Source: Flavobacteriales bacterium
GTDB taxonomy: Bacteria; Bacteroidota; Bacteroidia; Flavobacteriales_D; Crocinitomicaceae
Assembly: GCA_947491305.1 (NCBI GenBank)
Contig: CANLIL010000001.1
Span: 30,814-94,813, forward strand
Length of the DNA: 64,000 nt
Direction of reading: 5' to 3'
A program made the translations under genes and the position numbers. Under the pieces are notes generated by a model. The model worked only from the letters and a program-made list of their open reading frames with translations, did no database searches and was not told where the DNA came from. This document shows, in pieces, positions 4,155 through 56,276 of the stretch (position 1 is its first letter; each line of letters opens with the position of its first letter).

Positions 4155-4171
4155 ATTTGAAATAATGCGAA

Positions 4172-4179: not shown

Positions 4180-4236
4180 CAAAAAAAAATCTTTTTTTTG
4201 ATTTAAAACTAAATATTTTTTACTAACAATTTAAAA

Positions 4237-6506: not shown

Positions 6507-6511
6507 TTTTT

Positions 6512-7183: not shown

Positions 7184-7196
7184 GGTTCTGTTTGTA

Positions 7197-7967: not shown

Positions 7968-8101
7968 TTTTGTGAGTTTACTAAAACCTTAAAGTTAATT
8001 ATTGCCGTTAAGCCAAAAGTAATGATACCAACTATTACAAATATGGTATCAAGCTTTTCCTTGGTTGTTTTTTCTTTGAATTTTCTTTCTTGAACTATCA
8101 T
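7964..8101 (-). CDS. 45-aa single-pass membrane protein (holin-like candidate), below the ORF-track cutoff
   Basis: Hand translation gives MIVQERKFKEKTTKEKLDTIFVIVGIITFGLTAIINFKVLVNSQK. There are ATGA overlaps at both ends, with the GH19 gene upstream and the amidase gene downstream. Confidence 0.5.
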   Translation of the reverse strand: MIVQERKFKEKTTKEKLDTIFVIVGIITFGLTAIINFKVLVNSQK

Positions 8102-12078: not shown

Positions 12079-12257
12079 TAGTTCTTAGATTTAATCATTG
12101 TTACAAAAGCATCCCAAGTAGCTTTATCTGAATCTGATAAGTCAGAATAAATTATTATTATTTGTTTTTCTGGCATAATTCCAGTACCATATTGTGCTAA
12201 TGCTCTTACTTCATCTGATGTTGTTTCTTGAACAACTATTTGTTGTAAATTTTCCAT
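12078..12257 (-). CDS. 59-aa hypothetical protein (just below the ORF-track cutoff)
   Basis: Hand translation gives MENLQQIVVQETTSDEVRALAQYGTGIMPEKQIIIIYSDLSDSDKATWDAFVTMIKSKN. Its stop overlaps the next ATG (TAATG), and it fills an otherwise 185-nt gap between the fibre genes. Confidence 0.45.
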   Translation of the reverse strand: MENLQQIVVQETTSDEVRALAQYGTGIMPEKQIIIIYSDLSDSDKATWDAFVTMIKSKN

Positions 12258-12263
12258 AATTTA

Positions 12264-14684: not shown

Positions 14685-14686
14685 AT

Positions 14687-31618: not shown

Positions 31619-34600
31619 TTACATTTTACCGAATTGTTGCTCGAAAATTTCTTGGTCTGATACAGAACCTCCTTTATCATACTTTTTTGAATCAAGTTCT
31701 CTAAGTAACGCCAAAACCTCATTGAATCGAGTAAGTTTAGATTCTCTTTCTCTTCTTAAGGCTTTTGCTTCATCTGAATCGTCACCTTCATTGTAAGTGC
31801 TTAAACGGCTACTATTTAAATCTCTTTGAAGCTTGTTAAGTTCTTTTAGTAGATTGGATTCAAGTAAGCTTGCTTTTCTAGCCTCAGTCTTATTCATAAA
31901 ACCTTTTTCCGGGTCTTCTTCTTTAATAATACCTGCTGATAATTTAGCGTGATTTACAGCATCCTCTTCCGAAACAAAAACTATAACTGTATCTTCTTTC
32001 CATCTTGGGGAACTTGAAACTACTTCCCATCTGTCAGTTTGCGTTGTAGAAGGTTGAACTTTGTAAGTAATATTAAGCTTTTCGTCTTTGAAAGTTTGAG
32101 TTTTGGTAGTTGGTGATTGCTCAACATCTTTCTTTTTACCCAAAACTTTCAAGCTAATTTCCAAGGCTTTGATACGCTTTTCAACCATAGCTTTATCTTT
32201 CGAGAAACGAAGCGAAATTTTAAGAGCTTTCAATCGTTTTTCAGTAAAGTCAACTTTGTTTATTGGTTTAGCGGTTTCAATTACCTTTTCCACTTTAGGC
32301 AGAACGTTTGTTCCCAATCCTGCGTAACTTCTATTTTCTGGTAACTGCATTCCACCGCGCTCTTCAATCAATTGTTTGATACCATCAACTTTGATGTAAC
32401 CGTCAACCTCTTTCTTAAGCATTTGGAAAGCTTCATCGCCTGTACCATAGAAATCCTCAATTACACTAATAGGAACGTAACGACCAAACTCACCGTTTTT
32501 AGCGTTATTGTCTTGGTAACGTTTCAATGCGCGTTTGATTGAGTCTTCTTTTGGAATATCCATAAACACAAGGAATACTTTATATCCTAATTTTTTCAAT
32601 CTCTTGATTAAAGGACGGTATTTCTTAACGTTACTCATTGTTCCATCGTACAACAAATCGTGCTTACAAGGTGTGTCGTAGCGATCTAAAAGCATATTCA
32701 CAACGTCTTTAGCTTCTTCATGCGTAGCAGGTGCATTCCATCCCTTATACTCTGGGAGCATTGAACGAACCTCGTCAGCGTCAATTTTCCAAATTTTATC
32801 ACTTTGCAAGTAAGGAGCATTGTTTTTTAAGAAAGTAGATTTACCACTTCCCGGTGCGCCACCCATAATAATTGCAATAGGTTCAATTTGGTCGGTACAC
32901 AAAGCATTTCCAACAAGTTTGTCGATTATTTCTTTGTGAAGTTTTTTTCTTTCTTCCGTGTATTCATAAACAACAGTTCCGTCTTCTGTTTTGATTTCTT
33001 TGCTGTTTAAGTATTTCGTTTGTGGTTGAGATTTAACACACTCGTCCAATAGCATTAATCCTTCTGAATCAATTCTAACAATTCCATTAGGATCAACAGG
33101 AGGGCACATTAAAACTTTTGGCTCAATTACTTTTGGTAAAGTAACATCGTCTAACAAGTAGTTCATTCGAGCGAAGTCCTTCACTAATTCATCAACAGAT
33201 TTTTCTTTGATTTGAAGCTTTTCTCTTTTTTCAAGAACTTCCATTACCTTTCTGTCTTTGGCTTCTTCACTAGTTAAAGAAGTTTGGCGTTTTTCAAGGT
33301 CTTCTATTTCAAATTTAACCTTTCCGATATAATCAGCAACATCCTTTTCTGGAACACGTCTTGGATCTAAGAAATCACGTTTGAAACGATCTGTATTTCT
33401 AACAGACATATTGAAATCGTCAAACCAATAAGGCTTGTAAACGCTACTATACGGGGACTGAATCATATCTTTAGGAACTGAATCATAAGACCCTTGCTTA
33501 ACATATCTTTTATCTTCATCAAGTTTTGTTCTCCAAAATTCTTGAATTGCGGAGATTTGTTCTTTTATAGGTTTATCTACGTATTTTTTTCTTACGTCTT
33601 TCAACAATTCTTTTAAATCGTCTTTTCGATACTCAATAGTTTTAATTTGCTCAATAAATCGCTCTAGTTTTTCAACATCCGCTTTTTTATCCGTAATATC
33701 CTCAGCAATTGTTTCAATATCCTCCATTAATTCCATTTCTGCAATAACGCGAGGGTTTTTAATCAATGAATACTTTAAATCTTTTGGATTAAACTCTTCT
33801 GTTTTAAGGATGTTTGTTTGACCATCAGTATCAAAAATACTATTGATACGAGAAGTTTTTTCTTCTAATTTCTGGAACATAAAAATATCAGCACTGTCAA
33901 TCATTAATGGATTAACAATACGTACATTTTTAAACGCATTTCCTTGGCGGTAAATTCTACCTTCCAATTGTTGAATATCCGTTGGGTTGAATGAAAGGAA
34001 ACAGTTGAATAACGTACTAGAATAAGCTTGCAGGTTGATACCTTCGCGAATAGTAGCACTACCAATTAATACCTTACATCTTTCTTCATCAGAAATTGGT
34101 TCTAATTCGAGTGTTTTTTTATTGAATTTTTTACCAAGGAATAAGTTTTTTACATATTCTTTTGCGTCTTCGTCACTTACACCCTTTTCGATAGGCAATT
34201 TAATTTCAGAACTGATAATTCCAACTTCATGAGGTTTAAAACCTAAATTTTCAATTAAGTATTCACGGATTAAACCAAAGAACTTAACACCTCTTTCGCT
34301 GTAAATAACAACTCCAGACATTGGTGTTTTTGTTTTTTCGTGGTGTTCTTTAATGGATCTTATGCTCTCTACTACAAAAGTAAGTTTTCCAGATGTTTCA
34401 ATAAATTGTTTCGCTGTAGGTCTTAGTAAACCTTGACCACAATCAAATAAATATGGACTGAAAGCAACATTTCTTGAATGGTTTAGAGCTAATAATAAAC
34501 GAACGCCTTTTTTCTCGTTTTCGTCCATTGCTCCTTCGTCGATTTCAACAGATTCCTCCGATTTTATTTCTTCTTCGTCTTCACCACCATTACTAGAGTT

Positions 34601-37177: not shown

Positions 37178-37178
37178 A

Positions 37179-37409
37179 TCAATCTGGAATATAGTTTGGA
37201 TTTAATTCTGTTTCTACTTGAGAAATAGCTGTTGATATAGAGATACCTTCGTTTGCGACGAAAGAAACTATTCTATCTACAATTTTTATTTTGTCGTTTG
37301 TGTTTTCCAACAAAGGGCACAAATACGGCGTGTCGGTTGGGTTGCAAAAAGAAAGCTCAATATCAATAGCTTCTTTTAATTTGATTACTTTTTCCTGAAT
37401 TGAATCCAT
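37179..37409 (-). CDS. hypothetical protein
   Basis: 76-aa ORF ending 2 nt before the giant gene starts. Confidence 0.45.
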   Translation of the reverse strand: MDSIQEKVIKLKEAIDIELSFCNPTDTPYLCPLLENTNDKIKIVDRIVSFVANEGISISTAISQVETELNPNYIPD

Positions 37410-37572
37410 TACTTTAAGTTTAAGTTGCTAAATTACTGAAAAATTAGTACTTGTAAATATAATTTTTTTTACAGTTGTTAAAAAATAATCACAAAAAAAA
37501 ATCGACTAACCTAAGCTAACCGATTTTCGAGAGAGAGAAACTGTTTCTAGTTTTCGATAATTACATTTTAAT

Positions 37573-37812
37573 TTAAGCTCTTATTTTTTCTAAGACATAG
37601 TTTATGTCTAAACCAAATTCAGCTAAATTAACAGGTTTTGAACATAATCCTCCGTTTGAGCCTTCGAAGATGAAGGTTGCTTTTGTTGGATCTTGGTTGT
37701 CGTATTCAATTTTTGTCATAGTGTCAACCTTGACATTAATTTCTTTGAGCTCTATTGGTTCTGCAATAAAACCACCTTTTCTTTCAGCGATTACGGATGT
37801 TGTTACTTTCAT
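37573..37812 (-). CDS. hypothetical protein
   Basis: 79-aa ORF. Confidence 0.45.
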   Translation of the reverse strand: MKVTTSVIAERKGGFIAEPIELKEINVKVDTMTKIEYDNQDPTKATFIFEGSNGGLCSKPVNLAEFGLDINYVLEKIRA

Positions 37813-37833
37813 TTTTTTTATTGGTTTTTAAAT

Positions 37834-38208
37834 TTAGTTTTCTTTTTGAATTTCTTCAAGGATTTTACCTAAGTCAATACCCCTTTTTTTAAACCCTTCT
37901 ATTTCTGTTGGTGTAATAATGAAACTACCCGGAATAGCACCAATAAGAACAAAGTTTTCTTCAAATAGTTGGTATTGATTAAGGAAGTTTTCTTGGTTCA
38001 TAATAACAACTTGTCCGTCTTCTTCTGAAATAAAATCTGTTATGTCAATTTCATAACTGCTTTCTTCAGTCTGTTTAATGAATAGTTTATTATCTTTTAA
38101 AAAAACTTCATTGTTCAAAAATTCTTTTATTTTTTCAAAGTTTTCGCCTGTCCATTGAATTGCTTTAATACGCTCAGGATTTTTAAGGTAGGATGATGAT
38201 TCGTTCAT
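37834..38208 (-). CDS. hypothetical protein
   Basis: 124-aa acidic ORF. Confidence 0.5.
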   Translation of the reverse strand: MNESSSYLKNPERIKAIQWTGENFEKIKEFLNNEVFLKDNKLFIKQTEESSYEIDITDFISEEDGQVVIMNQENFLNQYQLFEENFVLIGAIPGSFIITPTEIEGFKKRGIDLGKILEEIQKEN

Positions 38209-38251
38209 GTTATTTTTTTTATTGGTTATTTAAAGTTGTTGTTTGAGTTTT

Positions 38252-39652
38252 TTAAGTATTAAATTTTTTCCACATCGGATAAAAATAGCTTCTAACTTGA
38301 CCTTGCAAGTAATCCATTACATCCTCAGCTTCATCGTCAACTAACTCCTCGTACATTTCTCTTTTGTAATCAGCGTCATTTTCCTTTCCGTAATGCTTAG
38401 CAACGGCGGTTAAAAGCAAATCACTGTCTTCGTCTGTTAGTTTACTAAGGAATAACTTATTTCTTTGACCATTGTTAGTTGCTTCTGTTTTAGACTCAGG
38501 CGTTTCGGTAGTTTTGATTTCAGCTACATTCTCAATAAACCTATCCTCTTCTTTTTCTCCACCGTTTTTCTTTAAAACAATAATATCACTCGTAACACCA
38601 GTGCGCTCAAATGTTGTATCAGGCAAGCGATAAGCTTCTAATAATTTACAATTATCATTTAAGTATTCTTTTACAGGCGTAACATCGCCATCTAAGAACA
38701 TCATACCACCATTTCTAACCTCCGCACCAATTATCATCACCATTAATCCACCCGGCTTCAATAAGTCCATTCCACGACGCAAGAAATACTCAACATAGTT
38801 GCGAGCATCGGTAAAATCCTTTTCTCCAAAGCCTAACAAATAACGTGCTGCATTCGGATCAAGCGCATCAAAACTTCCATAAGGACAGTTACCAATTACT
38901 ATATCAAATTTTTCAAGCTTGTCAACTTTGCCTCTAATTGTATTGTTTTTATTGATAAATACAGTTTCAAAAGGCGTTAATTTTACATCACAGAAAGGGT
39001 ATAAAATTTTAGTGATAATTGCGCTATATTCGTTTATTTCGTAAGCAACACATCTAGCCTCTGGATTAGCATAAGCAAGAAACTCACCTGTTCCAACAGA
39101 CGGCTCTAAAACAGAATGCTCCCCTTTATATCCATGCTTGTAAGCCAAAGCCCACATTTTTTCAATTACTTTTTTAGGAGTAAAGAACTCGAATAAAGAA
39201 CCAATTGAAAGCTCACCGTATTTACCCAAACCACCATAACCAGTATAGTTTTTGATAAACATTTTTTCTTCCAAGCTATATTCTCTCGAATCAACATTAG
39301 TAAAAGAACCAACGTTGTCTTTAATCCACTTTTCAATTCCCTTATTTAGTTCGTATGGATTGTTGTAATCGTCGATGTTTAAACTGATTTTAGTATTAGT
39401 TTCGGATGCAACACCACCACCATCTGCAAACTTACCTCTTCTTTGCATATCCAAAGCAATTGCAACAGCTTGTTTCTGAGGGTAACCTTCATTGACCAAT
39501 ACAGAAATCTTTTCGCTTACCATAGCTTTGTCATTTTCTGAAATTTCGCCACCTCTAGCTAAAATATTTGGAACATTTGGGTTATTTGCTCCCATCGTTT
39601 GAACTAATTTTGCGTTCATATCGTACAATTTATTTACTTTATCTACTTCCAT
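38252..39652 (-). CDS. N6-adenine DNA methyltransferase-like protein (polyvalent-module associated)
   Basis: Motif I 'VLEPSVGTGEFLAY' and motif IV 'VIGNCPYGSF' (NPPY variant). The N-terminal 'PQKQAVAIALDMQRRGKFADGGGV' ends in the same poly-Gly junction seen in the neighbouring giant proteins. Confidence 0.65.
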   Translation of the reverse strand: MEVDKVNKLYDMNAKLVQTMGANNPNVPNILARGGEISENDKAMVSEKISVLVNEGYPQKQAVAIALDMQRRGKFADGGGVASETNTKISLNIDDYNNPYELNKGIEKWIKDNVGSFTNVDSREYSLEEKMFIKNYTGYGGLGKYGELSIGSLFEFFTPKKVIEKMWALAYKHGYKGEHSVLEPSVGTGEFLAYANPEARCVAYEINEYSAIITKILYPFCDVKLTPFETVFINKNNTIRGKVDKLEKFDIVIGNCPYGSFDALDPNAARYLLGFGEKDFTDARNYVEYFLRRGMDLLKPGGLMVMIIGAEVRNGGMMFLDGDVTPVKEYLNDNCKLLEAYRLPDTTFERTGVTSDIIVLKKNGGEKEEDRFIENVAEIKTTETPESKTEATNNGQRNKLFLSKLTDEDSDLLLTAVAKHYGKENDADYKREMYEELVDDEAEDVMDYLQGQVRSYFYPMWKKFNT

Positions 39653-39653
39653 T

Positions 39654-39839
39654 TCATTTATACTTAAAGGTTGACATTATTGGTTCGCATCTGCTAATTT
39701 GCCATTCTTCTTTTAGCGCATTTTTCAACTGCATTTTCATATACTGAGCCATTTCTGTTTTTGTCATGTTCTCACTTGACATCTGAAACTCTACAGTAAT
39801 TGTTCCAGTTATTTTTTTTCTTGTTTTAGATGCTGGCAT
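39654..39839 (-). CDS. hypothetical small basic protein
   Basis: 61-aa ORF with a -7 box 14 nt upstream. Confidence 0.45.
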   Translation of the reverse strand: MPASKTRKKITGTITVEFQMSSENMTKTEMAQYMKMQLKNALKEEWQISRCEPIMSTFKYK

Positions 39840-39852
39840 AACTATTTTTTTT

Positions 39853-39860
39853 CAAATTTA
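39853..39860 (-). promoter_or_regulatory. candidate -7 box TAAATTTG (minus strand)
   Basis: Forward caaattta, upstream of the ATG at 39839. Confidence 0.35.
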
Positions 39861-39888
39861 GTGTAAAAATATTATTAATTTGTCAATC

Positions 39889-42800
39889 TTATTTTTTAAA
39901 CCTACCAAGAATTTTATTGCAATCAATTTCAACTCCATTATTATCCATAGAATTGAGCTCTGAAACGATTTCACATGGAGTTAAATCTTTTCCTTCAAAC
40001 TCAAACTTTTCTGTTTCAGAACTGCTAAATTTATTTACCACCAATTCTCCACCCTCAATCTCTATGTTTTGCCCGGTTGACTTAACTACCAAAGGAATAC
40101 CACCCTCTGAGTGTGGCGGCCCTTCCGCCAAGCCTCCCAACGCAAGAATTTTTTCGGCTGTTTTTTTGATTTTGATACCATCAATAATACTATCGTAATC
40201 AGACATTGAAAGTTCTTTGTCTTTCAGCTTTAATAAGTTTTCAGTTAAAAAATGAATTTGAGCGTCGTTATCAACATCTTCGCGTATATACTCAAACAAG
40301 CGAATTAATAAAGGCACGTTGATTGTTAGTGTGTCCGTTTCATTAACATCAACATGGTTGTTTTCGATATTCACATAAGGCACTCCTTCAAAATTATCAA
40401 CCGACAAATATTTTGATTTATTAATCTCGGAGATCATATAAGGTTTAACTTTTGTTTTAACACCTTTTCCTTTACCTCTATTCCATGAGTCAATTACTGT
40501 TACACAAACAGGATAATAAGGTACTTCTAATTCAATCAAAGCATTTAATCTATGATTTCCCTCTGTTAGCAATAACTTACTTTCATTTCTAATGTAGTTA
40601 AGTATCAAAGGTTCTGTTATACCATTTTCAATAAAGGACTTTTTAATGTTTTCAATATTTTTGGCGCTGTCGTCCAATGAGTATTTTGGATCATTACGTC
40701 GATTAAACTCACTACACTTTACTAAAAAGCTTATTGGAACAAGCAAAATATTAATATCAGACCATCTTTTGTCAAGACTGATAGCTATTTTACCTTTATT
40801 TGAGTTGAGTGTGTGAGAAGATTTAGCAGCAACTCCACCTCCACCAGCTAATTTTTTTTTATTTTTTTCTTGATCAAACAAATTAATGTAGTTTTCAATA
40901 TAAATTCTACCACCATAATACTCAAAGTCAATGTAAAAACCTTTTGAATTTTCTTTTACTTTAATCCAATTAAATCTATAATCATCTCCGAATGTATCAA
41001 TATTTATAAACTTAATTTTTTCATTTGAAAAATCAAACAATGCTTCACTTTCAAAATATCTTTTGTTATAAGATGGGTTATTTGCATAAATTTTTAATTT
41101 AACTATTGGGAAATTATCATTAACCCCACCGCCACCACCAAAAGTTTCGCTTTCTTTTTTCATTTCGTTATTTTTATTAATTGTAATAATTTCATTGTCA
41201 TAAGCACTTTCAACTTCTTTTTTAAAGTCTCTTTTCAAAATGCCATTTATTTTATCCGATTTATCGAAATCAAATTTTTCCATTACATAGAGTAAATCAT
41301 ATTGACCATAAGTTCCGAACCTAAGAAGTTTTACTCTCATGCTCCAATTAGCTTGATCCTTTTCTGATTGAATGTTACTCCAATCGTTGAAAACTTTATT
41401 GAGAGTTTCTCCGCTGCCGAAATTATTAACTACGTGAATGTAATTATCAGGAATACCACCACCATTTTTCATTTTCAGTTCGTTTGAATCTATTTTTGAA
41501 GCTTTACCCCCCATTACAGCGCTGTAAACACGAGCCATAGCCCATTGTTCTTTTGATTTAACAGTTGGTCTCACACTACTTGGATTTGTTTTGAATGCAC
41601 CAATACCTTTATTGTAAATTTGCTGTAACCCTTTCAGCGAAACACGCGTATCTTTTGAAATTTGCTCTAAATTATGAGAAGTGGATGTTGGATAGCCAAA
41701 TTTTTTATTGTATTTATCTTTAAAACTTACAAAACCACCGCCTTCATAACGGATGTCTGGGTTGTTTGTGTCGAAGTTTCCATTGTTTCCTACCGCAGAC
41801 TTTATTTGATTGGGTTTAAAAACAACATAAGTAGTAGCAAATAATTCATCCTTTAAAAAATCTACAGCAGAGCCCAAGTCTTTTACGTTTTTAACAATAA
41901 GACCATCTTTATTATGTTTTTTTGCGATTGAAATAAAATCGTTTATGTGCTTATGTTTTTCTCCAATAGAGTTAAAATTGGTAAATCCTGCATCTACAAT
42001 AAGAGGGTCTTGTAAACTTAAAAAAACAGGCATTATATTAGCGTTTTCTTTAAAAAAAACACCTGATTTAATCTGTTTTGGTGTTGGAGTTAAGTTTTTA
42101 TAAATGTATGTTTCTGCAACTGAAATACTATCAGTAAAAAAAATACCTTCTTTACTAACCCCTCTTCTTTTCGTATCTTCATCATTTGAGAAAACATTAA
42201 AGTCGTGTGTAGTGGCGTGTAAAACTACCAAAGGTTCTCCATTTTCGTCAACCGCTTTACTAACTCCTTCTTCTAATCTTTTTAATGATACCTCGTCAAT
42301 TCCAGAATCATTTATTTTAGTTAATGCAAGTTTCTCCCAGTCGCCGAAAAATTTTTTAAAGAAATCGCCTCTCACAAGTTTGTATTGCTCTGGATTTAGG
42401 TTACTTGGTTTACCGTTGGGTGCAAGTAAAGCAGGAACACCGCCGCCTTCATCAAAACGAATATCAGGATTGCTCGCATCAAACGTTGTGTTTGTGCCGT
42501 CAGTAAGTTTTATTTGGTTAGGTTCAAAAACGACTATTTCATTAAAGTATTGAATTTGATTTTCATGATTTATGTCTGGTTTTTCGTAAATATTAATCCT
42601 ATTTATAACTACTCCATCAAAATCATTTCTTATTAATAATTCTTGAAATCCATAGTCTGAAAAATATTTTGTGATTGCTTTTGAAGGTCTATAATCGTCT
42701 TTGAAAGTATTATTTAAAAAGTCTTTATCTAAATCCGATAAACCTTCAAGTCCTTTATAATTAATTATTGATTGCTCTGATAGTTTTTCCCAATTAAGCT

Positions 42801-43665
42801 CAATAATAAATGGGTTCATTATTTTCAGAAAAACAGGCATTACTATTCGGTTATTTTCTGATTTAAGTGTATAGTACTTTGCTGTTCCAAAAGAAGATGT
42901 AAAATAGAATCCAGCTCCAAAATCGCCAAATCCTGTTTTTGTATTCTGAAATTCTTTATCAAAAATTGTAAATATAGAATTTGTTCCATGGTAGCAAATT
43001 AACGGCTCTCCGTTCTCGTCAACTACTTTAGAAACATTAGATAAATTTTCAATAATATTATTTGTAATATCCAAAATCTTTCTATCTTTGCATAGAGCAT
43101 TCTGATTTGCACGATATGACGGTTTAGCATGTACGGTTTTCAGGATGCTTTCTTTTTCTACAACCCCTGTATCATGTATTATTAAATCACCATCGTTCTC
43201 TTCTTGAACGGTGATTCGATAAATATATTCAACTCCTTCAAAGATGAAGTTAGATATGTAAACCCAAAACTTTTTAATATTTGGTTTTAAGTCTAGTTTA
43301 CGATTAGCTTCTTCTTCTATTTTTATTGCATTTTCTAATATTTCAGGAAGGTAGTCAATAGAAGAAAATAAAACATCAGGTCTAGCATGTCTGCAAATAT
43401 GTTTTAATCCACTTCTGCTTAATTGAATATTGTTCCCGTCCTTATCTATTTTAAATAAACTATGAAGTTTAATATATGATTTCTCATAATCAAAGTTTCT
43501 TTCTTTGTGATTATTCACAATAGTAATTGGCTTATTCAATAAATTTAGAATATTTGCTTTTTCAAAATTTCCAAACCACGCTATAAACTCAGGAGTTCTC
43601 ACCAATTTGTATTGCTCAGGAGTAAGGTTGCTTGGCTTTCCGTTTGGTGCTAATAATTGTGTCAT
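39889..43665 (-). CDS. giant polyvalent protein: two ART-PolyVal-like (ADP-ribosyltransferase-fold) modules, ParB/Srx-like nuclease domain and C-terminal 'GPPHSEGG' module
   Basis: Duplicated leader 'LLAPNGKPSNL(T/N)PEQYKLVR..(F/W)FG(N/D)(F/W)EK'. 'VDENGEPLICYHGTNSIFTIFD..GAGFYFTSSFGTAKYY..MPVFLKIMNPFII' and 'VDENGEPLVVLHATTHDFNVFS..EGIFFTDSISVAETYIY..MPVFLSLQDPLIV'. 'LLLTEGNHRLNAL' is ParB-like. Modules are separated by GGG(G)(V/I) tracts. Confidence 0.6.
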   Translation of the reverse strand: MTQLLAPNGKPSNLTPEQYKLVRTPEFIAWFGNFEKANILNLLNKPITIVNNHKERNFDYEKSYIKLHSLFKIDKDGNNIQLSRSGLKHICRHARPDVLFSSIDYLPEILENAIKIEEEANRKLDLKPNIKKFWVYISNFIFEGVEYIYRITVQEENDGDLIIHDTGVVEKESILKTVHAKPSYRANQNALCKDRKILDITNNIIENLSNVSKVVDENGEPLICYHGTNSIFTIFDKEFQNTKTGFGDFGAGFYFTSSFGTAKYYTLKSENNRIVMPVFLKIMNPFIIELNWEKLSEQSIINYKGLEGLSDLDKDFLNNTFKDDYRPSKAITKYFSDYGFQELLIRNDFDGVVINRINIYEKPDINHENQIQYFNEIVVFEPNQIKLTDGTNTTFDASNPDIRFDEGGGVPALLAPNGKPSNLNPEQYKLVRGDFFKKFFGDWEKLALTKINDSGIDEVSLKRLEEGVSKAVDENGEPLVVLHATTHDFNVFSNDEDTKRRGVSKEGIFFTDSISVAETYIYKNLTPTPKQIKSGVFFKENANIMPVFLSLQDPLIVDAGFTNFNSIGEKHKHINDFISIAKKHNKDGLIVKNVKDLGSAVDFLKDELFATTYVVFKPNQIKSAVGNNGNFDTNNPDIRYEGGGFVSFKDKYNKKFGYPTSTSHNLEQISKDTRVSLKGLQQIYNKGIGAFKTNPSSVRPTVKSKEQWAMARVYSAVMGGKASKIDSNELKMKNGGGIPDNYIHVVNNFGSGETLNKVFNDWSNIQSEKDQANWSMRVKLLRFGTYGQYDLLYVMEKFDFDKSDKINGILKRDFKKEVESAYDNEIITINKNNEMKKESETFGGGGGVNDNFPIVKLKIYANNPSYNKRYFESEALFDFSNEKIKFINIDTFGDDYRFNWIKVKENSKGFYIDFEYYGGRIYIENYINLFDQEKNKKKLAGGGGVAAKSSHTLNSNKGKIAISLDKRWSDINILLVPISFLVKCSEFNRRNDPKYSLDDSAKNIENIKKSFIENGITEPLILNYIRNESKLLLTEGNHRLNALIELEVPYYPVCVTVIDSWNRGKGKGVKTKVKPYMISEINKSKYLSVDNFEGVPYVNIENNHVDVNETDTLTINVPLLIRLFEYIREDVDNDAQIHFLTENLLKLKDKELSMSDYDSIIDGIKIKKTAEKILALGGLAEGPPHSEGGIPLVVKSTGQNIEIEGGELVVNKFSSSETEKFEFEGKDLTPCEIVSELNSMDNNGVEIDCNKILGRFKK

Positions 43666-50145: not shown

Positions 50146-51741
50146 ATGGAAACACCAGAAAACACAACCAACCAAGAAAGTAAAGCAAAACCTGTAAGCG
50201 CGATTATTTTAAATCCAGAAACAAATGAGGTTACTACTCAGGAAATGATCACAACAGTAATTACAGAAACACTCCCTTCTGAATTTGGTTTAGCTACCAA
50301 CACAGCAGTAAACATGCTAGTCGGTTTAGTTCCAACTTTGGCAGAAAGAAACTTACTGATTGAGGCATATACCGAGGCTATAAAACTTGAAATTACAAAA
50401 GAAAATGTAAAGTATTTTAAAGAGCTTAAAAGTAAAATTGTAAAAAACAGAACTCAAGGACTTAAGCTTTGGCAAGAAAAAGAAAAAAGATTTTACTTGG
50501 ACGGCGGTAGATTTATTCAAAGCATTTATAACAAGGAGGTTTTGATAAATGAACAAATGGAGGAAAAGTTAGAAGCAGCTATTAAGTATGAAGAAAACCT
50601 TGAAAAAGAAAGAATTAACAAGTTAATAGAAGAGCGATCTGAACTTATATCTAATTTCGTTGAAGATCCATTAGTTTATAATTTAGGGCAATTGGATGAA
50701 ATGGCTTTCCAAAATCTAAAAAAAGGATTAGAACTATCTTATCAGGCTAAAATAGATCAAGAAAAAGCCCAAAAAGAAAACGAAGAAAAAGAAAAGCAGG
50801 CATCCATTCTCCGTGAGCAACGAAAAAACGAACTTTTACCATTTTGGCATTTATTACCAGAAGAGCATAGAACTAAAGACTTTGCCGTTTATAATAACGA
50901 TCAGTGGGTTGTTATAATGAACTCGGTTAAAGCTAAAGATGCTCAAGAAAAAGAAAAATTGGAAAAGGCAGAAGCATTGAAGCAAAAGCAAAAAGAAAGA
51001 ATGCAACAAATAAATCCATATTTGGCATTTTTAGCTGATGTTCAGGAAACAATTGAACTTAGTGATGAAGACTTCGCAAATAAGTTAGTTGATTTAGAAG
51101 CTAAAGCGGAGCTAAAAAGAAAAGAAGAACAAGAAAAGGCAAGTTTACAAGCTAAAAGAAAAGAACGTACAGACTCAATTAAACCCTATTTATTCTTTTT
51201 CCAGTGGGATTTAGAAGAATGTTTGTTATTATCAGACGAAGAGTGGAAACCATTATTTGACGAGGCAAAATCATCTTTCGATAATGAGCAAATAAAAATC
51301 AATCAACAAAAAGAAGAACAACGAATTGAAAGCCTAACAGAATTACGCAAAAGTGTTATTGACGCTGATTATTTGACAGAAGAAGAAAAATTACTCAACT
51401 TTGGTAAAATGGGAGAAGTTGAATTTAGTGATTTGGTTACTTTGTTAAACGAAAGAAAATCAACCGAACTTGCTTTAATAGCTGCTGAAAAAGCAAAAAA
51501 AGAACAAGCCGAACAATTACAATCCGAAAGTCAAAAACAACCAGAGAATCAAAATATATCTAACCAATCAGCTACTGTAAAAGTTACCCCAGAAAGTTAC
51601 CTTTCAGACTTTAAAAACATAGTTGAGTCTTGTGAAAGATTAGGTAAAATTGATACTACAGGGTCTAAGTATTCAAAAATTCAACAATTAGCCAATACCT
51701 TTGTGGAACATTCAAAAAACATCTTAAATGAAATTAAGTAA
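50146..51741 (+). CDS. long coiled-coil K/E-rich protein with three internal repeat units
   Basis: The repeat units are 'RKNELLPFWHLLPEEH', 'ERMQQINPYLAFLADVQETIELSDEDF' and 'ERTDSIKPYLFFFQWDLEECLLLSDEEW'. Confidence 0.5.
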   Translation: METPENTTNQESKAKPVSAIILNPETNEVTTQEMITTVITETLPSEFGLATNTAVNMLVGLVPTLAERNLLIEAYTEAIKLEITKENVKYFKELKSKIVKNRTQGLKLWQEKEKRFYLDGGRFIQSIYNKEVLINEQMEEKLEAAIKYEENLEKERINKLIEERSELISNFVEDPLVYNLGQLDEMAFQNLKKGLELSYQAKIDQEKAQKENEEKEKQASILREQRKNELLPFWHLLPEEHRTKDFAVYNNDQWVVIMNSVKAKDAQEKEKLEKAEALKQKQKERMQQINPYLAFLADVQETIELSDEDFANKLVDLEAKAELKRKEEQEKASLQAKRKERTDSIKPYLFFFQWDLEECLLLSDEEWKPLFDEAKSSFDNEQIKINQQKEEQRIESLTELRKSVIDADYLTEEEKLLNFGKMGEVEFSDLVTLLNERKSTELALIAAEKAKKEQAEQLQSESQKQPENQNISNQSATVKVTPESYLSDFKNIVESCERLGKIDTTGSKYSKIQQLANTFVEHSKNILNEIK

Positions 51742-51973
51742 GTATAAAAGACACTCGTGGTTATTGCATTGTTTGTATTTGTTACTAATTGGTCTTGCTA
51801 GTGTTTATATCTTAGTATCTATTACGTTTAAAGAGTTAAATCCATTGGATTGGGGCAGAGCAGCTAAAGTAGTAGCATTCGTTTTCTCCACACCTATTGT
51901 ATTACCAATTTTTGCAATTATCATTACTATCTTAATCAAAGAAAACAATAAAACCGAAAACCAAAATGACTAG
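51728..51973 (+). CDS. small two-TM membrane protein
   Basis: Hydrophobic segments 'LLHCLYLLLIGLASVYILVSI' and 'VVAFVFSTPIVLPIFAIIITILI'. Confidence 0.5.
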   Translation: MKLSKYKRHSWLLHCLYLLLIGLASVYILVSITFKELNPLDWGRAAKVVAFVFSTPIVLPIFAIIITILIKENNKTENQND

Positions 51974-52298
51974 TGAAAAATATTTAGAAAGAATTGAGTT
52001 TTTCAAACAAAAACAAAAAGAACTTAATGAACTTAAATCAAAATTAAGAGAATCCTACATTCAAGCAAATCGACCTTGTAACATAGGAGACACCGTCAAA
52101 ATTATTTCTTTTGGAGGTAAAGAATATATTGGAGAGGTTGTTTCTTTCTCTTTATTTGATACTGATGTCTTTATAGACTGCATTAAGTCCGGAAATAATA
52201 AAGCATATCAAACTAAACCTCAAAAAAGCGTTGAGGTAATTTCCAAGGCAACAACAATTCAAGAAAATAAACAAGAGGTAGAGGATGTCGAAAATTAA
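51966..52298 (+). CDS. hypothetical protein
   Basis: 110-aa ORF overlapping both neighbours. Confidence 0.5.
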   Translation: MTSEKYLERIEFFKQKQKELNELKSKLRESYIQANRPCNIGDTVKIISFGGKEYIGEVVSFSLFDTDVFIDCIKSGNNKAYQTKPQKSVEVISKATTIQENKQEVEDVEN

Positions 52299-54555
52299 GC
52301 CACTAAAAATTGCAGGTCAATTTTCAGGCGTTGGGGCTTTCGACCATGCTTTTAAGAGACTTAACTTGCCGTATTTGAACGTGTATCAAGCCGAATGGGA
52401 TAAACACGCTAGGCAAACTTATTTACTTAATAACGAAGAGCCTATTTATTACGTAAATGATGTTTATGATACACCCATAGAAGAAATAACCGAAAAATAT
52501 GGGAGTATGGACGTGTTTATGTCGTCCGCACCTTGTTTTACAGGCGAAACACTTGTAAATACCGAAGATGGTTTTAAACAAATAAAAGATATTCAAGTAG
52601 GGGAATTTGTTTTAACGCATGAAAATAGATTTAAAAAAGTTGTAGATTTTGGTTCTAAAGTAGCAGAAACTTTTATTTTAAAAGCTCAGGGTATTATTGA
52701 TACTGAAACAACGTCAAATCATAGATATTATGTTAGAAAAAGGTATAGTGAATGGGAGCGTATCAATGGAAAAACATTTTACACAAGAAAATTTACTAAT
52801 CCTGAATGGGTGGAGGTTAAAGACTTAACCAAAGATCATTTTGTTGGAATAAATATTCCCTCGATCGAATCAAATCCATTTTTAATCAATAAAGAAACTG
52901 CTTATGTGTTGGGTAGATATATTGCTGATGGGTGGTTAAGGCTACAAAAGACAGGTAGTAGCGTTATAATTGCTGTCGGTAAATCTAAAAGGGAATCAAT
53001 TTCTGAAAAAATTAAATTAAAACACACGCTTCATCAAGAGATAAACGGTTGTTCTAAACTGTTTATTTATTCAAATAGTTTGGTTGATTTAATTCAAAAA
53101 ATAGGATTAGGAAGGGGTGCTATAAATAAACGAATACCACAATCTATTATAAATCTCCCTAAAGAAATCCTTAAAGAATTTGTTGCAGGATATATGGATG
53201 GTGATGGACATAAACACAAAGATTGTTTTCGCGCAACTTCGGTAAGTAAAGAATTATTAATGGGTTTACAACTTTGTATAGCTAAGCTATATCGGACAAA
53301 CGCTAACATTAAATTTGTTAAAACGCCTGATAAAACAGAGATACAAGGTAGAATTGTAAATCAAAAAGATTATTATGTTTTAGAGTTTAGAACGGAAATG
53401 CGTAAACAATCAAATGCTATTGTCATAGATGATGTGATTTGGTATCCGATAAAGGAAATAAAAAAGACAAATAAACAACAAAAAGTTTACGACCTTACGG
53501 TTGAATGTGACCATTCTTTTACTGCAAATCAAGCAATTGTTCATAATTGTCAAAGTTTTTCCATGATGGGTAAGAGACAGGGCAAAGACGATGAAAAAGG
53601 GAGAGGTATTTTGTTTTTTCAAAGTTTGGAATTTATACGTATAAACAAACCAAAAACTTTCATTTTTGAGAATGTAGAGGGGCTTATTTCTCATGATAAA
53701 TCCGACAAAAAAAACGTTTATGGAAAAACATTTTCTGAATGGGTAAATTACCTTGGTGGGAAATCCGTTAATGGAGTACCTACTATTTTTCCTTATGAGG
53801 ATTCAGTGGGTTATCATTTGTACTATGAAGTTTTAAATGCAAAAGAACACGGAATACCACAAAACAGAAAGCGAGTGTTCCTTATAGGATTCCGGGATGA
53901 TGAAGATAATAATTTTCAGTTTCCTAAAACCGAACATTTACAAATTAAGCTTAAAGATGTTTTGGAAAAAGATATTCCTGAAAAATATTACTTGAGCGAA
54001 AGAATGATTAAAGGTTTTATAACTCACGCAAAAAGGCAAAAAGAAAATGGTACAGGTTTTGGATTTAAACCTACTTATGGTGATAAATGCGCTTCAGCAG
54101 TAACTACAAAATGTGGAACAAGACCAACTGATGATTATATCATAGACTCTGAAATAAAAGTTGGAACTTGGCGAACACACAAAGATGGTCAAGGATTCAG
54201 AGAAGTGACTGATGGAAATTGCCCTACCATTCCTGCTAGAGCGAGAGAAGACGGAAGCGGCCAACCTGTAATAGTTCAAAAATCAGAAAATTATTCAATT
54301 GATTTGTTTTCGGACGAAGAAGAGTCTATTGATAAAAACGACATACTTTATCTTTTACAAAACGGCTACCGAATAAGAAGACTTACGCCAAGAGAGTGTT
54401 TCAGATTGATGAATTTCGACGATTCATTTATTTGGAATTGCTCTGACAGCCAAGCTTTCAAGCAGGCAGGTAACAGCATTGTAGTTCGAAAACTTGAAAA
54501 GATACTTCGCATCCTATTAAAAAAAACCATTTCAGAAATTTCCAACAATGATTAG
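52285..54555 (+). CDS. DNA cytosine-C5 methyltransferase interrupted by an intein
   Basis: The exteins read 'QFSGVGAFD' (motif I), 'FMSSAP|CQSFSMMGKRQG' (motif IV after splicing), 'ENVEGL' (VI), 'QNRKRVFLIGF' (VIII) and 'RRLTPRECFRLMNF..QAGNSIVV' (IX/X). Confidence 0.85.
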   Translation: MSKIKPLKIAGQFSGVGAFDHAFKRLNLPYLNVYQAEWDKHARQTYLLNNEEPIYYVNDVYDTPIEEITEKYGSMDVFMSSAPCFTGETLVNTEDGFKQIKDIQVGEFVLTHENRFKKVVDFGSKVAETFILKAQGIIDTETTSNHRYYVRKRYSEWERINGKTFYTRKFTNPEWVEVKDLTKDHFVGINIPSIESNPFLINKETAYVLGRYIADGWLRLQKTGSSVIIAVGKSKRESISEKIKLKHTLHQEINGCSKLFIYSNSLVDLIQKIGLGRGAINKRIPQSIINLPKEILKEFVAGYMDGDGHKHKDCFRATSVSKELLMGLQLCIAKLYRTNANIKFVKTPDKTEIQGRIVNQKDYYVLEFRTEMRKQSNAIVIDDVIWYPIKEIKKTNKQQKVYDLTVECDHSFTANQAIVHNCQSFSMMGKRQGKDDEKGRGILFFQSLEFIRINKPKTFIFENVEGLISHDKSDKKNVYGKTFSEWVNYLGGKSVNGVPTIFPYEDSVGYHLYYEVLNAKEHGIPQNRKRVFLIGFRDDEDNNFQFPKTEHLQIKLKDVLEKDIPEKYYLSERMIKGFITHAKRQKENGTGFGFKPTYGDKCASAVTTKCGTRPTDDYIIDSEIKVGTWRTHKDGQGFREVTDGNCPTIPARAREDGSGQPVIVQKSENYSIDLFSDEEESIDKNDILYLLQNGYRIRRLTPRECFRLMNFDDSFIWNCSDSQAFKQAGNSIVVRKLEKILRILLKKTISEISNND
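52534..53547 (+). mobile_element. 338-aa intein with LAGLIDADG homing-endonuclease domain
   Basis: Block A 'CFTGETLVNTEDG', block B 'TSNH', LAGLIDADG motifs 'YVLGRYIADGW' and 'FVAGYMDGDGH', block F 'VYDLTVECDHSFTAN', and block G 'IVHN' followed by the +1 Cys. Confidence 0.85.
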
Positions 54556-54772
54556 AACCTTTACAATGAGCTTTTTTCAAGTTGGATTAGTTGCCGTCAA
54601 TACAAAGCTTATTCAAACTAACAATCTTTTTGGAATATTTTTAACTAGTTGTTTAATATCGCTTGTGTGGACTATGAACGTTAACAAAATGACTGGTGCA
54701 AGCCTAAAACAAAAATTGTCTTATGCGCTTGGTGCAGGAGTTGGATCAATGGTTGCTATTTCTATATTTTAA
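54548..54772 (+). CDS. small polytopic membrane protein
   Basis: Three hydrophobic segments: 'FFQVGLVAVN', 'LFGIFLTSCLISLVWT' and 'ALGAGVGSMVAISIF'. Confidence 0.5.
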   Translation: MIRTFTMSFFQVGLVAVNTKLIQTNNLFGIFLTSCLISLVWTMNVNKMTGASLKQKLSYALGAGVGSMVAISIF

Positions 54773-54783
54773 AATTAAATTTT

Positions 54784-54981
54784 ATGTTAAATATTTTATT
54801 AACCGACGAACATTCTTTACTTACACCTTCAACAAGGATTGGATTCAACGAAACTGAACTTGAAAATTGGTGGACTAAAAAGAAACTTAGATCCGAAAAA
54901 TCAGGCTACTTTAATAAAGAGCTTTATGGATTGATTCAAAAAGTAAAATTATATTGTAACGATGAGACTGAAATTAAATAA
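54784..54981 (+). CDS. hypothetical protein
   Basis: 65-aa ORF. Confidence 0.4.
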   Translation: MLNILLTDEHSLLTPSTRIGFNETELENWWTKKKLRSEKSGYFNKELYGLIQKVKLYCNDETEIK

Positions 54982-55315
54982 CCAACAAATTAAATGTTTG
55001 ATAATATTAATGTCGGCAATAGATTTAGTTCCGTTTTCTACTGGTTATGAAAGAGAGTTGACGCTTCATGTTTTAAAACGCTTCAATAATAAATTAAAAA
55101 TAAGAGCGCTATCTGATAAGAAAATAACCTCTATTGAATTAGAAGAAGAGACTATTTGTGCATTGAATTACGTAATGTCTAATATTGGTGGTTTTGAAAT
55201 GTTTCAACCTCTTATTGCATCAGAACTTAATTTGATTTTCTCTCAGGTTAATAAACACTATGTTGGAAGGTTAAGGTTTCAAGAAAATTTAATACTATTG
55301 AACAATTCACTTTAA
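54962..55315 (+). CDS. hypothetical protein
   Basis: 117-aa ORF. Confidence 0.45.
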   Translation: MRLKLNNQQIKCLIILMSAIDLVPFSTGYERELTLHVLKRFNNKLKIRALSDKKITSIELEEETICALNYVMSNIGGFEMFQPLIASELNLIFSQVNKHYVGRLRFQENLILLNNSL

Positions 55316-55327
55316 AGCACTTTTTAA

Positions 55328-55747
55328 TTGAATCCAAAACTATTTTTTTGTCGTAAATGCAACCAACACAAAGAAGATTCTGAGTTTTGGTTTGATAAGC
55401 GTAGAGGAACTATTAGAACCCCATGTAAGGATTGTTCCAATAGTCAAAAAAGACACGTTAGGGCGCTTAATTATTTACAGAATAAAGTTACAAAGTCTGA
55501 TATTATTAATCACTATGGGGCAAAAGGTCTTTCAGATGAAGCTGTTGAATTTATTTCAGATGCTATTCTTTTAAATAGAACAATCAAATCATTTAACAAA
55601 CCACTGATAAAAAATTTTGATAATTTTGTTGTTCTATTCTGTCCGGCTTGCGGTAACTTCAATAAAATTAATTTGCCTTGTGAAATAGAAAGAATGATTC
55701 AGTTAATGAATAACTACCAAGAACTTCATATAAAACATGAGATTTAA
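55328..55747 (+). CDS. zinc-ribbon protein (TTG start in ORF track)
   Basis: Contains 'CRKCNQ..CKDCSN' and 'CPACGN' Cys pairs. Confidence 0.45.
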   Translation: MNPKLFFCRKCNQHKEDSEFWFDKRRGTIRTPCKDCSNSQKRHVRALNYLQNKVTKSDIINHYGAKGLSDEAVEFISDAILLNRTIKSFNKPLIKNFDNFVVLFCPACGNFNKINLPCEIERMIQLMNNYQELHIKHEI

Positions 55748-56276
55748 TACACTAGAAGGCATTAAAAACAAAAAGTTTAATAACGATTTTGGCATAGCAG
55801 CTTATATTGATAAGTATGTACACTATGAAGGAACTGAACAAATTTCTATTCATATAAAAAGCGGTTATGGAGCAAGCGAAAAAATGACAAATGAAGTTAT
55901 TTCCGAACACGATTTGCAAAGCTTTATTGAAGTATTTAAAAAAGAAAAAGCTAAAAAAATAGATTATTTTGCAACTCAAAAAAAATCTGAGCACGAAAAA
56001 ATAAAACCTATACCAAAGAAAATAATTATAAATAAACCAATTATTCATAAACCAATAGAAAACAACATAAAAATGAACACAGAAACTAAAGAAGAAACAA
56101 ATACAAAAGACACAGAAAATAACCATAAATCACTAAGAAGTATTCTTTTTGAGACTATGGTTGGTGTTAAAAATGGAAATGTAGATGTTCAAAAATCAAA
56201 AGCTATTTCCGCAGTTGCTCAAACGATAATCAATTCGTTTAAAGCAGAAAATGAAGCTAATAAAAAATTGAAATAA
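55737..56276 (+). CDS. hypothetical protein
   Basis: 179-aa ORF. It is the last gene of the plus-strand block. Confidence 0.5.
   Translation: MRFNTLEGIKNKKFNNDFGIAAYIDKYVHYEGTEQISIHIKSGYGASEKMTNEVISEHDLQSFIEVFKKEKAKKIDYFATQKKSEHEKIKPIPKKIIINKPIIHKPIENNIKMNTETKEETNTKDTENNHKSLRSILFETMVGVKNGNVDVQKSKAISAVAQTIINSFKAENEANKKLK

What the first reader, a model, noticed from the sequence alone, without database searches (positions are those of the whole stretch)
52534..53547. LAGLIDADG intein inserted exactly at the catalytic cysteine of a C5-cytosine methyltransferase
The host protein reads 'FMSSAP' + intein + 'CQSFSMMG', so splicing regenerates the motif IV 'P-C-Q'. The +1 extein nucleophile of the intein is therefore the methyltransferase's catalytic Cys. 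All intein blocks are intact: Cys1, 'TSNH', two LAGLIDADG motifs and the terminal 'HN'. This suggests an active, possibly still mobile element. MTase activity should strictly depend on splicing, giving a built-in post-translational switch.
Basis: seen in the sequence. Interest (0 to 1): 0.7.

Follow-up and report, generated by a model that had tools for sequence, protein, structure and literature searches.

The report
Homing intein splitting a phage DNA methylase

Summary
ORF 52285-54555 (+) encodes a 756-aa C5-cytosine methyltransferase. It is interrupted at 52534-53547 by a 338-aa class-1 intein with a two-motif LAGLIDADG endonuclease. The junction reads FMSSAP|C...VHN|CQSFS, so the +1 splice nucleophile is the motif IV Cys, equivalent to M.HhaI Cys81.

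Closely related, syntenic contigs carry the same gene without the insert (89% and 78% identical). They align without a gap across the junction.

The nearest occupied allele has an 89%-identical intein inside exteins that are only 74-76% identical. Synonymous divergence (dS) is 0.42 in the intein and at least 1.35 in the exteins. The endonuclease domain has dN/dS of 0.11. This points to recent horizontal homing and a nuclease still under selection.

The element is not new. Of the 150 closest 50%-identity clusters, 134 are C5 methylases, and 124 of the 132 with both junctions read P|C...HN|C. The same site is occupied in Lactobacillus phage Nyseid, Asteriusvirus A4, Propionibacterium phage B22 and P1-like phages (152 of 5426 complete E. 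coli genomes). A 2025 preprint lists C-5 methylases as intein hosts.

That methylation depends on splicing is a sound inference. A regulatory "switch" has no evidence. The invariant Pro at -1, which is usually splicing-hostile, is the most interesting feature.

The parts
52285..54555 (+). Precursor gene: C5-cytosine DNA methyltransferase interrupted by an intein (756 aa plus stop)
   Evidence: One continuous ORF. PF00145 E 7.7e-59, PF14890 and PF14528. TIGR00675 scores 217.5 bits. The identical protein is found on 5 metagenome contigs.
52285..52533 (+). N-extein (83 aa). It holds motif I (FSGVGAF, 52321-52341) and ends in SSAP, the Pro of motif IV (Pro at -1).
   Evidence: Aligns with M.HhaI residues 11 onwards. 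The intein-free alleles P0001 and P0002 are continuous across this end.
52534..53547 (+). Intein, 338 aa, class 1, with an embedded LAGLIDADG homing endonuclease
   Evidence: Pfam and NCBIfam matches. The AF2 model has pLDDT mostly above 90 over residues 84-421. Foldseek finds 7qsu at E 1e-18 and PI-SceI at E 2e-18. The segment is absent from L005, L006 and L007, with exact breakpoints.
52534..52557 (+). Block A: Cys1 (52534-52536) in CFTGETLV, the N-terminal splice nucleophile
   Evidence: Position 1 is Cys in 143 of 144 family representatives.
52711..52722 (+). Block B: TSNH (Thr60, His63)
   Evidence: T60 and H63 are invariant in the family alignment.
52909..52935 (+). First LAGLIDADG motif, LGRYIADGW (acidic Asp132)
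   Evidence: G127, R128, Y129, D132 and G133 are invariant. The motif aligns with the TliVMA intein motif.
53182..53211 (+). Second LAGLIDADG motif, VAGYMDGDGH (Asp224)
   Evidence: G219, Y220, D224 and G225 are invariant. PF14528 covers residues 213-279.
53485..53547 (+). Blocks F and G: VYDLTVECDHSF ... AIVHN (His337, Asn338)
   Evidence: TIGR01443 intein_Cterm matches. The penultimate residue is His in 132 of 136 representatives and the last is Asn in 136 of 136.
53548..53550 (+). Cys+1: the first C-extein residue. It is both the splice nucleophile and the catalytic Cys of motif IV (PCQ).
   Evidence: The spliced sequence ssaPCQsfsmmGK aligns with M.HhaI agfPCQafsiqGK. That M.HhaI Cys81 is the catalytic nucleophile is established knowledge. 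Position +1 is Cys in 133 of 136 family members.
53548..54555 (+). C-extein (335 aa plus stop). It holds motifs IV (CQSFS), VI (FENVEGL, 53665-53685), VIII (QNRKRVF, 53860-53880), IX (54376-54417) and X (KQAGNSIVV, 54460-54486), plus a variable target-recognition region.
   Evidence: PF00145 covers residues 422-742. Three M.HhaI alignment stretches. Motif coordinates.

Best explanation
This is a genuine class-1 intein of 338 aa. It has a HINT splicing domain that encloses a two-motif LAGLIDADG homing endonuclease. It sits in the C5-cytosine DNA methyltransferase of a low-GC phage-like element, between Pro83 and the catalytic Cys of motif IV.

Inferred mechanism, following standard class-1 chemistry:
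1. The precursor is translated as one 756-aa chain that cannot methylate DNA, because 338 residues separate the P and the C of the PCQ catalytic loop.
2. Cys1 performs an N-S acyl shift at the Pro83-Cys84 bond, helped by block B Thr60 and His63.
3. The thiol of Cys+1, the future methyltransferase nucleophile, attacks the thioester.
4. Asn338 cyclises, helped by His337, and releases the intein.
5. An S-N shift restores ...SSAP-CQSFS... and gives a 418-aa active enzyme.
6. The freed intein acts as a site-specific endonuclease on intein-free alleles. The predicted target spans ...ATGTCGAGTACACCT^TGTCAAAGCTTTTCC.... Repair then copies the intein in during co-infection.

The element belongs to one large, orthologous intein family specific to this methyltransferase site. 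It behaves as a selfish element rather than as a demonstrated regulator.

What is shown: the anatomy, the family membership, the empty alleles, the signature of horizontal movement and the purifying selection. What is inferred: splicing itself, endonuclease activity and its target.
For: Anatomy and models:
- Domain models and sequence anatomy agree.
- The AF2 precursor model has mean pLDDT 82.5, with the intein mostly above 90.
- Foldseek matches the TliVMA intein 7qsu (E 1e-18, TM 0.66 on the target), PI-SceI (E 2e-18) and M.HhaI (E 3e-13).
- The spliced extein matches M.HhaI at E 6e-36, with PCQ aligned to PCQ.

Empty alleles:
- P0001 (417 aa, 89-90% identical) and P0002 (419 aa, 78% identical) lie in syntenic contigs L007, L005 and L006.
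- They align without a gap across the junction.
- The blastn breakpoints are 52536/53547.

Family:
- There are 570 50%-identity clusters at E below 1e-30.
- Of the best 150, 134 hit a C5-MTase HMM.
- Pro is at -1 in 140 of 144. The canonical P|C...HN|C occurs in 124 of 132.
- In a profile search, 113 proteins nearly all carry PF00145 together with intein Pfam domains.
- The same site is occupied in phages Nyseid, A4, B22 and P1-like phages.

Mobility and selection:
- Extein identity is 89% for window versus P0001 (empty) and 91% for P0124 versus P0002 (empty). The cross pairs are 74-78%.
- The two inteins are 89% identical.
- By the Nei-Gojobori method, intein dS is 0.42 and C-extein dS is 1.35. 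The N-extein is saturated.
- dN/dS is 0.138 for the whole intein and 0.107 for the endonuclease domain.

Other checks:
- There is no group I intron or other Rfam match in 51500-55500.
Against: No experiment exists. Splicing and DNA cleavage are inferred.

Pro at -1 blocked or crippled splicing in the natural and engineered inteins tested (PMC6486613 abstract and introduction; PMC13014065, where D-1P gave no splicing). Efficient splicing here therefore cannot be assumed from chemistry alone.

A phage methyltransferase is conditionally dispensable, so a non-splicing insert would not be lethal.

The two genomes compared are mosaic overall, with 0.52-0.97 identity per 200 nt. The higher identity of the intein could therefore partly reflect general recombination rather than homing. 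The dN/dS values rest on a single pair of sequences.
Confidence: 0.88

Rival explanations
1. Regulatory switch. Splicing is conditional, for example on redox state through Cys1 and Cys+1, on temperature, or on DNA or SAM binding. The phage would use it to time or gate methyltransferase activity. On this view the intein is domesticated rather than merely selfish.
For: The precursor must be inactive until spliced, which follows from the position of the insert. Both splice nucleophiles are cysteines, so oxidation could in principle block both splicing and catalysis. The intein is retained across very diverse hosts. Conditional protein splicing is documented for other inteins; this rests on established knowledge and was not tested here.
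Against: Closely related phages manage with the intein-free allele (P0001, P0002), as does reference phage P1, so the intein is not needed for function. The endonuclease domain is under purifying selection and the distribution looks like horizontal homing. That is the pattern of a selfish element. No regulatory feature was found.
Confidence: 0.08
2. Splicing-dead relic. The insert is an intein by descent but no longer splices, for instance because of Pro at -1. It then simply inactivates a dispensable methyltransferase, while the endonuclease persists.
For: Pro at -1 abolished splicing in the inteins tested (PMC6486613, PMC13014065). A methyltransferase is not essential for a phage on non-restricting hosts.
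Against: All catalytic positions are intact and nearly invariant across about 130 diverged clusters. Pro at -1 is the family's native context in 140 of 144 representatives, so it has co-evolved with the intein. dN/dS is 0.06-0.2 in the splicing segments. The exteins keep all MTase motifs and have dN/dS of 0.14, which would not be expected for a gene that has been permanently inactivated.
Confidence: 0.05
3. Not an intein. The insert would be an in-frame intron-encoded or free-standing LAGLIDADG endonuclease, or a bacterial intein-like Hint domain, fused into the gene.
For: LAGLIDADG endonucleases are also encoded by introns and by free-standing genes (established knowledge).
Against: HINT blocks A, B, F and G flank the endonuclease. 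There is no stop codon or frame change. No group I or II intron model matches. The fold matches intein-endonucleases end to end. Removing exactly C1..N338 restores an ungapped alignment with the empty alleles.
Confidence: 0.01

Closest known systems
Inteins at the motif IV P|C site of C5-cytosine methyltransferases. Examples are in Lactobacillus phage Nyseid (AUV59832), Escherichia phage A4 (USL83787), Propionibacterium phage B22 gp50, and Dmt of P1-like phages (OP279344, RCS47). C-5 methylase inteins are listed for actinophages in bioRxiv 10.1101/2025.01.02.630785.
   Same: The insertion point is identical (xxP|CF...VHN|C(Q/T)xxS). Homology runs the full length and includes the endonuclease domain. 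Length is similar, with a median of 345 aa. The blocks and the paired LAGLIDADG motifs are the same.
   Different: Identity to those annotated phage examples is only 27-34% over the tblastn alignments, which span the intein plus adjoining extein. Identity is 36-46% to most metagenomic members. The nearest relative (P0124, from a metagenome) is 89% identical. The host MTase subfamily reads MSS(A/T/V)PCQ instead of GG(S/F)PCQ and comes from a low-GC element that is probably a Bacteroidota phage. I found no paper in the searchable library that states the site is the catalytic Cys.
VMA-type LAGLIDADG inteins: PI-SceI (1vde, 1ef0) and the TliVMA and PhoVMA inteins (7qsu, 7qss, 7qst)
   Same: They share the architecture of a HINT domain plus a two-motif LAGLIDADG endonuclease. 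They are the best matches in both sequence and fold. Block A of the CF..GT type resembles the CFAKGT of PI-SceI (recalled, not tested).
   Different: The host protein and insertion site differ: a V-ATPase catalytic subunit, where -1 is Gly (recalled). Sequence identity is 15-20%. In the present intein, -1 is Pro and +1 is the host enzyme's own catalytic nucleophile.
N6/N4 DNA methylase inteins of mycobacteriophages (DNMT-1 and DNMT-2; Kelley et al. 2016, PMC5050341)
   Same: They are phage DNA-modification enzymes invaded by inteins.
   Different: The enzyme family (PF01555) and chemistry are unrelated. Those enzymes have no catalytic Cys, and the insertion sites are different.

Membership tests
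Class 1 intein (HINT splicing domain) | Cys, Ser or Thr at intein position 1 | tested here: met
   Cys at 52534-52536. Cys occupies this position in 143 of 144 relatives.
Class 1 intein (HINT splicing domain) | Block B TxxH | tested here: met
   TSNH at intein residues 60-63. T60 and H63 are invariant.
Class 1 intein (HINT splicing domain) | C-terminal His-Asn followed by a Cys, Ser or Thr at +1 | tested here: met
   AIVHN|C. TIGR01443 scores 24-28 bits against a cut-off of 15.6.
Class 1 intein (HINT splicing domain) | Hint fold and a model score above the curated threshold | tested here: met
   PF14890 scores 47.2 bits against 35.8. Foldseek finds 7qsu at E 1e-18 and 1ef0 at E 2e-18.
Class 1 intein (HINT splicing domain) | In-frame insertion in a conserved host protein whose intein-less homologs align without a gap | tested here: met
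   P0001 and P0002 with loci L005-L007.
Class 1 intein (HINT splicing domain) | Demonstrated protein splicing | not testable with these tools
   This needs expression followed by SDS-PAGE or mass spectrometry. The only indirect support is conservation and dN/dS of 0.14.
LAGLIDADG homing endonuclease (two-motif, monomeric) | Two LAGLIDADG motifs, each with its terminal acidic residue | tested here: met
   LGRYIADGW and VAGYMDGDGH. D132 and D224 are invariant. PF14528 scores 29.7 bits against 22.5.
LAGLIDADG homing endonuclease (two-motif, monomeric) | Site-specific cleavage of the empty allele | not testable with these tools
   Indirect support only: endonuclease-domain dN/dS of 0.107, and intein presence that does not follow the extein relationships.
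C5-cytosine DNA methyltransferase (PF00145 / TIGR00675) | Motifs I, IV (PCQ), VI (ENV), VIII (QxRxR), IX and X (GNS) in order | tested here: met
   All are present after conceptual splicing. PF00145 has E 7.7e-59 and TIGR00675 scores 217.5 against 100.65. M.HhaI matches at E 6e-36.
C5-MTase motif IV (P|C) intein family | Same insertion point and full-length intein homology to other members | tested here: met
   Family alignment. Of 132 representatives with both junctions, 124 are canonical, and 134 of 150 are C5 MTases.
Group I/II intron with an in-frame endonuclease ORF (considered) | A structured intron RNA flanking the ORF | tested here: not met
   No Rfam match at E of 1 or below in 51500-55500. 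Intein blocks lie at both ends of the insert.

The most novel reading that the evidence does not exclude
This very large natural family always has Pro at -1 and uses the host enzyme's catalytic Cys as the +1 nucleophile. It may have evolved a distinctive way of activating a Pro-Cys scissile bond, which would make it a natural source of Pro(-1)-tolerant inteins. Its two-cysteine chemistry might also make methyltransferase maturation conditional, for example sensitive to redox state. Phage DNA methylation would then be gated after translation.
Probability: 0.12. Interest if true: 0.7.

Novelty: new member of a known kind. Interest (0 to 1): 0.35.

Why it matters
As a single locus it is an ordinary selfish element, though a well-preserved one. 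The family it belongs to has three points of interest.

1. [quoted passage not shown] Here the +1 splice nucleophile is the enzyme's catalytic nucleophile, in hundreds of lineages.
2. The native -1 residue is Pro, which blocked splicing in the inteins tested (PMC6486613, PMC13014065). These inteins could therefore extend the intein toolbox to X-Pro|Cys junctions.
3. Occupied and empty alleles coexist in close relatives. This is true here and in P1-like phages of E. coli. It offers tractable systems to measure homing and any fitness cost of delayed anti-restriction methylation.

Tried and rejected
- Megablast of the gene against GenBank phages found nothing. The element itself is not a sequenced isolate.
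- Eight literature searches looked for an intein at the catalytic Cys of a C5 MTase, or in P1 Dmt. None found an explicit description. The only hit is a listing of C-5 methylase as an intein host in actinophages. Kelley 2016 covers only N6/N4 methylases. The papers on jumbo phages, Pectobacterium CB7, Nodularia, a B. thuringiensis phage and a glacier virome were irrelevant.
- The first word-indexed search with the intein alone found only 3 relatives. The exhaustive HMMER search and the profile search were needed to see the family.
- Rfam found no intron. The promoter and terminator scan was no better than shuffled sequence.
- An HMM scan of all six frames found no second intein in the window.
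- Base composition gives no foreign signature: the intein is 30.5% GC against 32.7% for the window.
- Co-conversion tracts next to the junction were not evident. Identity to L011 is only 0.5-0.8 in the flanking 30-nt bins.
- Antisense ORFs inside the intein (53094-53309 and 53410-53694, minus strand) were treated as chance ORFs in AT-rich DNA. They were not tested further.
Full report
**Observation**

Window 52285-54555 (+) is one uninterrupted 756-codon ORF. It reads ...YGSMDVFMSSAP|CFTGETLV...NQAIVHN|CQSFSMMGKRQG....

The landmarks are as follows:
- Cys1 at 52534-52536.
- TSNH (block B) at 52711-52722.
- LGRYIADGW at 52909-52935.
- VAGYMDGDGH at 53182-53211.
- VYDLTVECDHSF...AIVHN at 53485-53547.
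- Cys+1 at 53548-53550.

**Is it an intein in a C5 methyltransferase?**

Pfam gives these scores:

| Model | Score | Cut-off |
|---|---|---|
| DNA_methylase | E 7.7e-59 | - |
| Intein_splicing | 47.2 bits | 35.8 |
| LAGLIDADG_3 | 29.7 bits | 22.5 |

NCBIfam gives dcm (TIGR00675) at 217.5 bits against 100.65, plus the intein C-terminal model.

The intein alone matches solved intein-endonucleases by sequence, with the TliVMA intein 7qsu at E 1.2e-11.

An AlphaFold2 model of the whole precursor was built from a 145-sequence alignment. Its mean pLDDT is 82.5. The intein residues 84-421 are mostly above 90. The catalytic loop 424-441 and the target-recognition region 591-642 have low confidence.

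Foldseek against the PDB finds these matches:
- the TliVMA intein (E 1e-18, TM 0.66 on the target);
- PI-SceI (E 2e-18);
- separately, M.HhaI (E 3e-13).

The conceptually spliced 418-aa protein matches M.HhaI at E 6e-36. In that alignment ssaPCQsfsmmGK lines up with agfPCQafsiqGK. By established knowledge, that Cys (M.HhaI Cys81) is the nucleophile that attacks C6 of the target cytosine.

Motifs I, VI (ENV), VIII (QNRKR), IX and X (GNS) are all present. No RNA family, and in particular no group I or II intron, matches 51500-55500. No other intein exists in the window.

**Empty alleles**

A search with the spliced extein found intein-free versions of the same gene. P0001 is 417 aa and 89-90% identical. 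P0002 is 419 aa and 78% identical.

Their contigs (L007, L005, L006) are syntenic with the window. The gene order is 531-aa ORF, then about 80 aa, about 110 aa, the MTase, 74 aa, about 63 aa, and 117 aa.

The DNA alignment is ungapped across the junction:
- window: ...ATGTCGTCCGCACCT|TGTCAAAGTTTTTCC...
- empty allele: ...ATGTCGAGTACACCT|TGTCAAAGCTTTTCC...

blastn of the window against L005 breaks at 52536/53547. This fixes the intein boundaries independently of motif reading. It also gives the probable homing site.

**Evidence for mobility and selection**

The closest intein is P0124, 89% identical, on locus L011 from a different metagenome. It sits in an MTase whose exteins are only 74-76% identical to the window's.

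Extein identities form two pairs, each with one occupied and one empty allele:

| Pair | Extein identity |
|---|---|
| window / P0001 (empty) | 89% |
| P0124 / P0002 (empty) | 91% |
| cross pairs | 74-78% |

Nei-Gojobori estimates for window versus L011 are as follows:
- Intein: dS 0.42.
- C-extein: dS 1.35.
- N-extein: saturated (pS 0.83).
- dN/dS: 0.138 for the whole intein, 0.107 for the endonuclease domain and 0.141 for the C-extein.

Identity per 200 nt steps from 0.70 up to 0.86-0.92 and back to 0.74 at the intein borders. However, the two genomes are mosaic overall, ranging from 0.52 to 0.97.

I read this as horizontal homing that is more recent than the divergence of the host alleles, with the endonuclease still under purifying selection. 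The caveats are that it rests on one sequence pair and a mosaic background.

**How common is it?**

tblastn against GenBank phages shows the same insertion point in several annotated phage methyltransferases:
- Lactobacillus phage Nyseid: FGFP|CSPAGT...IIVHN|CQDIS.
- Escherichia phage A4 (Asteriusvirus): GGFP|CFPAGT...VVHN|CQAWS.
- Propionibacterium phage B22 gp50: GGSP|CFVAGT...VVHN|CQDLS.
- Dmt of a P1 isolate and P1-like phages: GGTP|CFTAGH...VVHN|CQAFS.

An exhaustive HMMER search of 1.84 billion cluster representatives with the intein gave 7410 hits at E of 1e-3 or below, and 570 at E of 1e-30 or below. Among the best 150:
- 134 hit a C5-MTase HMM, and most of the rest are short sequences that look like fragments;
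- Pro is at -1 in 140 of 144;
- both junctions are the canonical P|C...HN|C in 124 of 132;
- the median intein length is 345 aa.

A profile search returned 113 proteins. Almost all carry PF00145 together with intein Pfam domains. Some NCBI entries are named only "DNA cytosine methyltransferase" and come from Eubacterium, Ruminococcus, Methanobrevibacter and Beijerinckiaceae MAGs.

The P1-type copy occurs at 99% identity or more in 152 of 5426 complete E. coli genomes, mostly on plasmids. The reference P1 Dmt is intein-free at the same P77-C78.

**Literature**

[quoted passage not shown] Kelley et al. 2016 covers only N6/N4 methylases.

I found no paper in the searchable library that states the site is the catalytic Cys, or that notes the P1 Dmt intein.

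Novikova et al. [quoted passage not shown]

Zhang et al. state that natural and engineered inteins failed with Pro at -1. A 2026 study found no splicing for a D-1P precursor.

**Mechanism**

The best explanation is standard class-1 splicing:
1. An N-S acyl shift at Pro83-Cys84.
2. Trans-thioesterification by Cys+1.
3. Asn338 cyclisation.
4. An S-N shift that regenerates SSAP-CQSFS.

The freed LAGLIDADG endonuclease then homes into empty alleles.

The precursor cannot be an active methyltransferase, because the PCQ loop is split by 338 residues and the catalytic thiol is engaged in splicing. Dependence of activity on splicing is therefore a sound inference.

A regulatory switch is not supported. 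Close relatives and reference P1 function without the intein, and the evolutionary pattern is that of a selfish element.

**Verdict**

The observation and the core interpretation are correct. The element is a new member of a large family that is already sampled but little discussed. The features worth a specialist's attention are the invariant Pro at -1 and the catalytic Cys at +1. Overall interest is modest.

Noticed in passing
L004 (P1 isolate OP279344) 1800-4841, compared with L010 (NC_005856) 6413-8677: Reference phage P1 Dmt (754 aa) is uninterrupted at GTP-CQAFS. A lab P1 isolate, RCS47 and vB_EcoM-Ro157c2YLVW carry a roughly 340-aa LAGLIDADG intein at exactly that site. The same DNA, at 99% identity or more, is in 152 of 5426 complete E. 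coli genomes (148 places on plasmids). It is annotated there as 'Dam family methyltransferase' or 'LAGLIDADG family homing endonuclease'.
   Followed up: partly
Proteins P0127, P0133, P0185 and P0191 (relatives): Some C5 methyltransferases carry a second intein directly after motif VI (...WENV|CF...VHN|CGAFSS), in addition to, or instead of, the motif IV intein. This means two catalytic motifs of the same enzyme family are intein targets.
   Followed up: partly
Window 55316-55327; L005 7429-8319; L011 8143-11420: The region just downstream of the MTase varies between relatives. L005 has an extra 296-aa C5 methyltransferase between the 117-aa and 139-aa ORFs. L011 has an IS1595-type transposase and an N6_Mtase/Eco57I (type IIG-like) gene a few genes further on. 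The window has neither.
   Followed up: partly
Window 31619-43665 (- strand): There are large 'polyvalent protein' genes. 39889-43665 has ART-PolyVal, LPD3 and DUF5824 domains. A DarB-like antirestriction methyltransferase (38252-39652) and helicase (31619-37177) are encoded as separate ORFs, with three small ORFs between them.
   Followed up: partly
Window 10783-16090 (- strand) and 50146-51741 (+): Several large ORFs (805, 466, 430 and 531 aa) have no Pfam or PHROG match. The 805-aa ORF, the only one searched that way, also has no tblastn match in GenBank phages. The element appears to belong to an uncultured, poorly annotated lineage. Its MTase is closest to Flavobacterium and Riemerella-phage enzymes.
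   Followed up: no
Window 50146-56276: The MTase lies in a short block of + strand genes inside an otherwise - strand genome. GC skew and AT skew flip sign over 50-56 kb.
   Followed up: no
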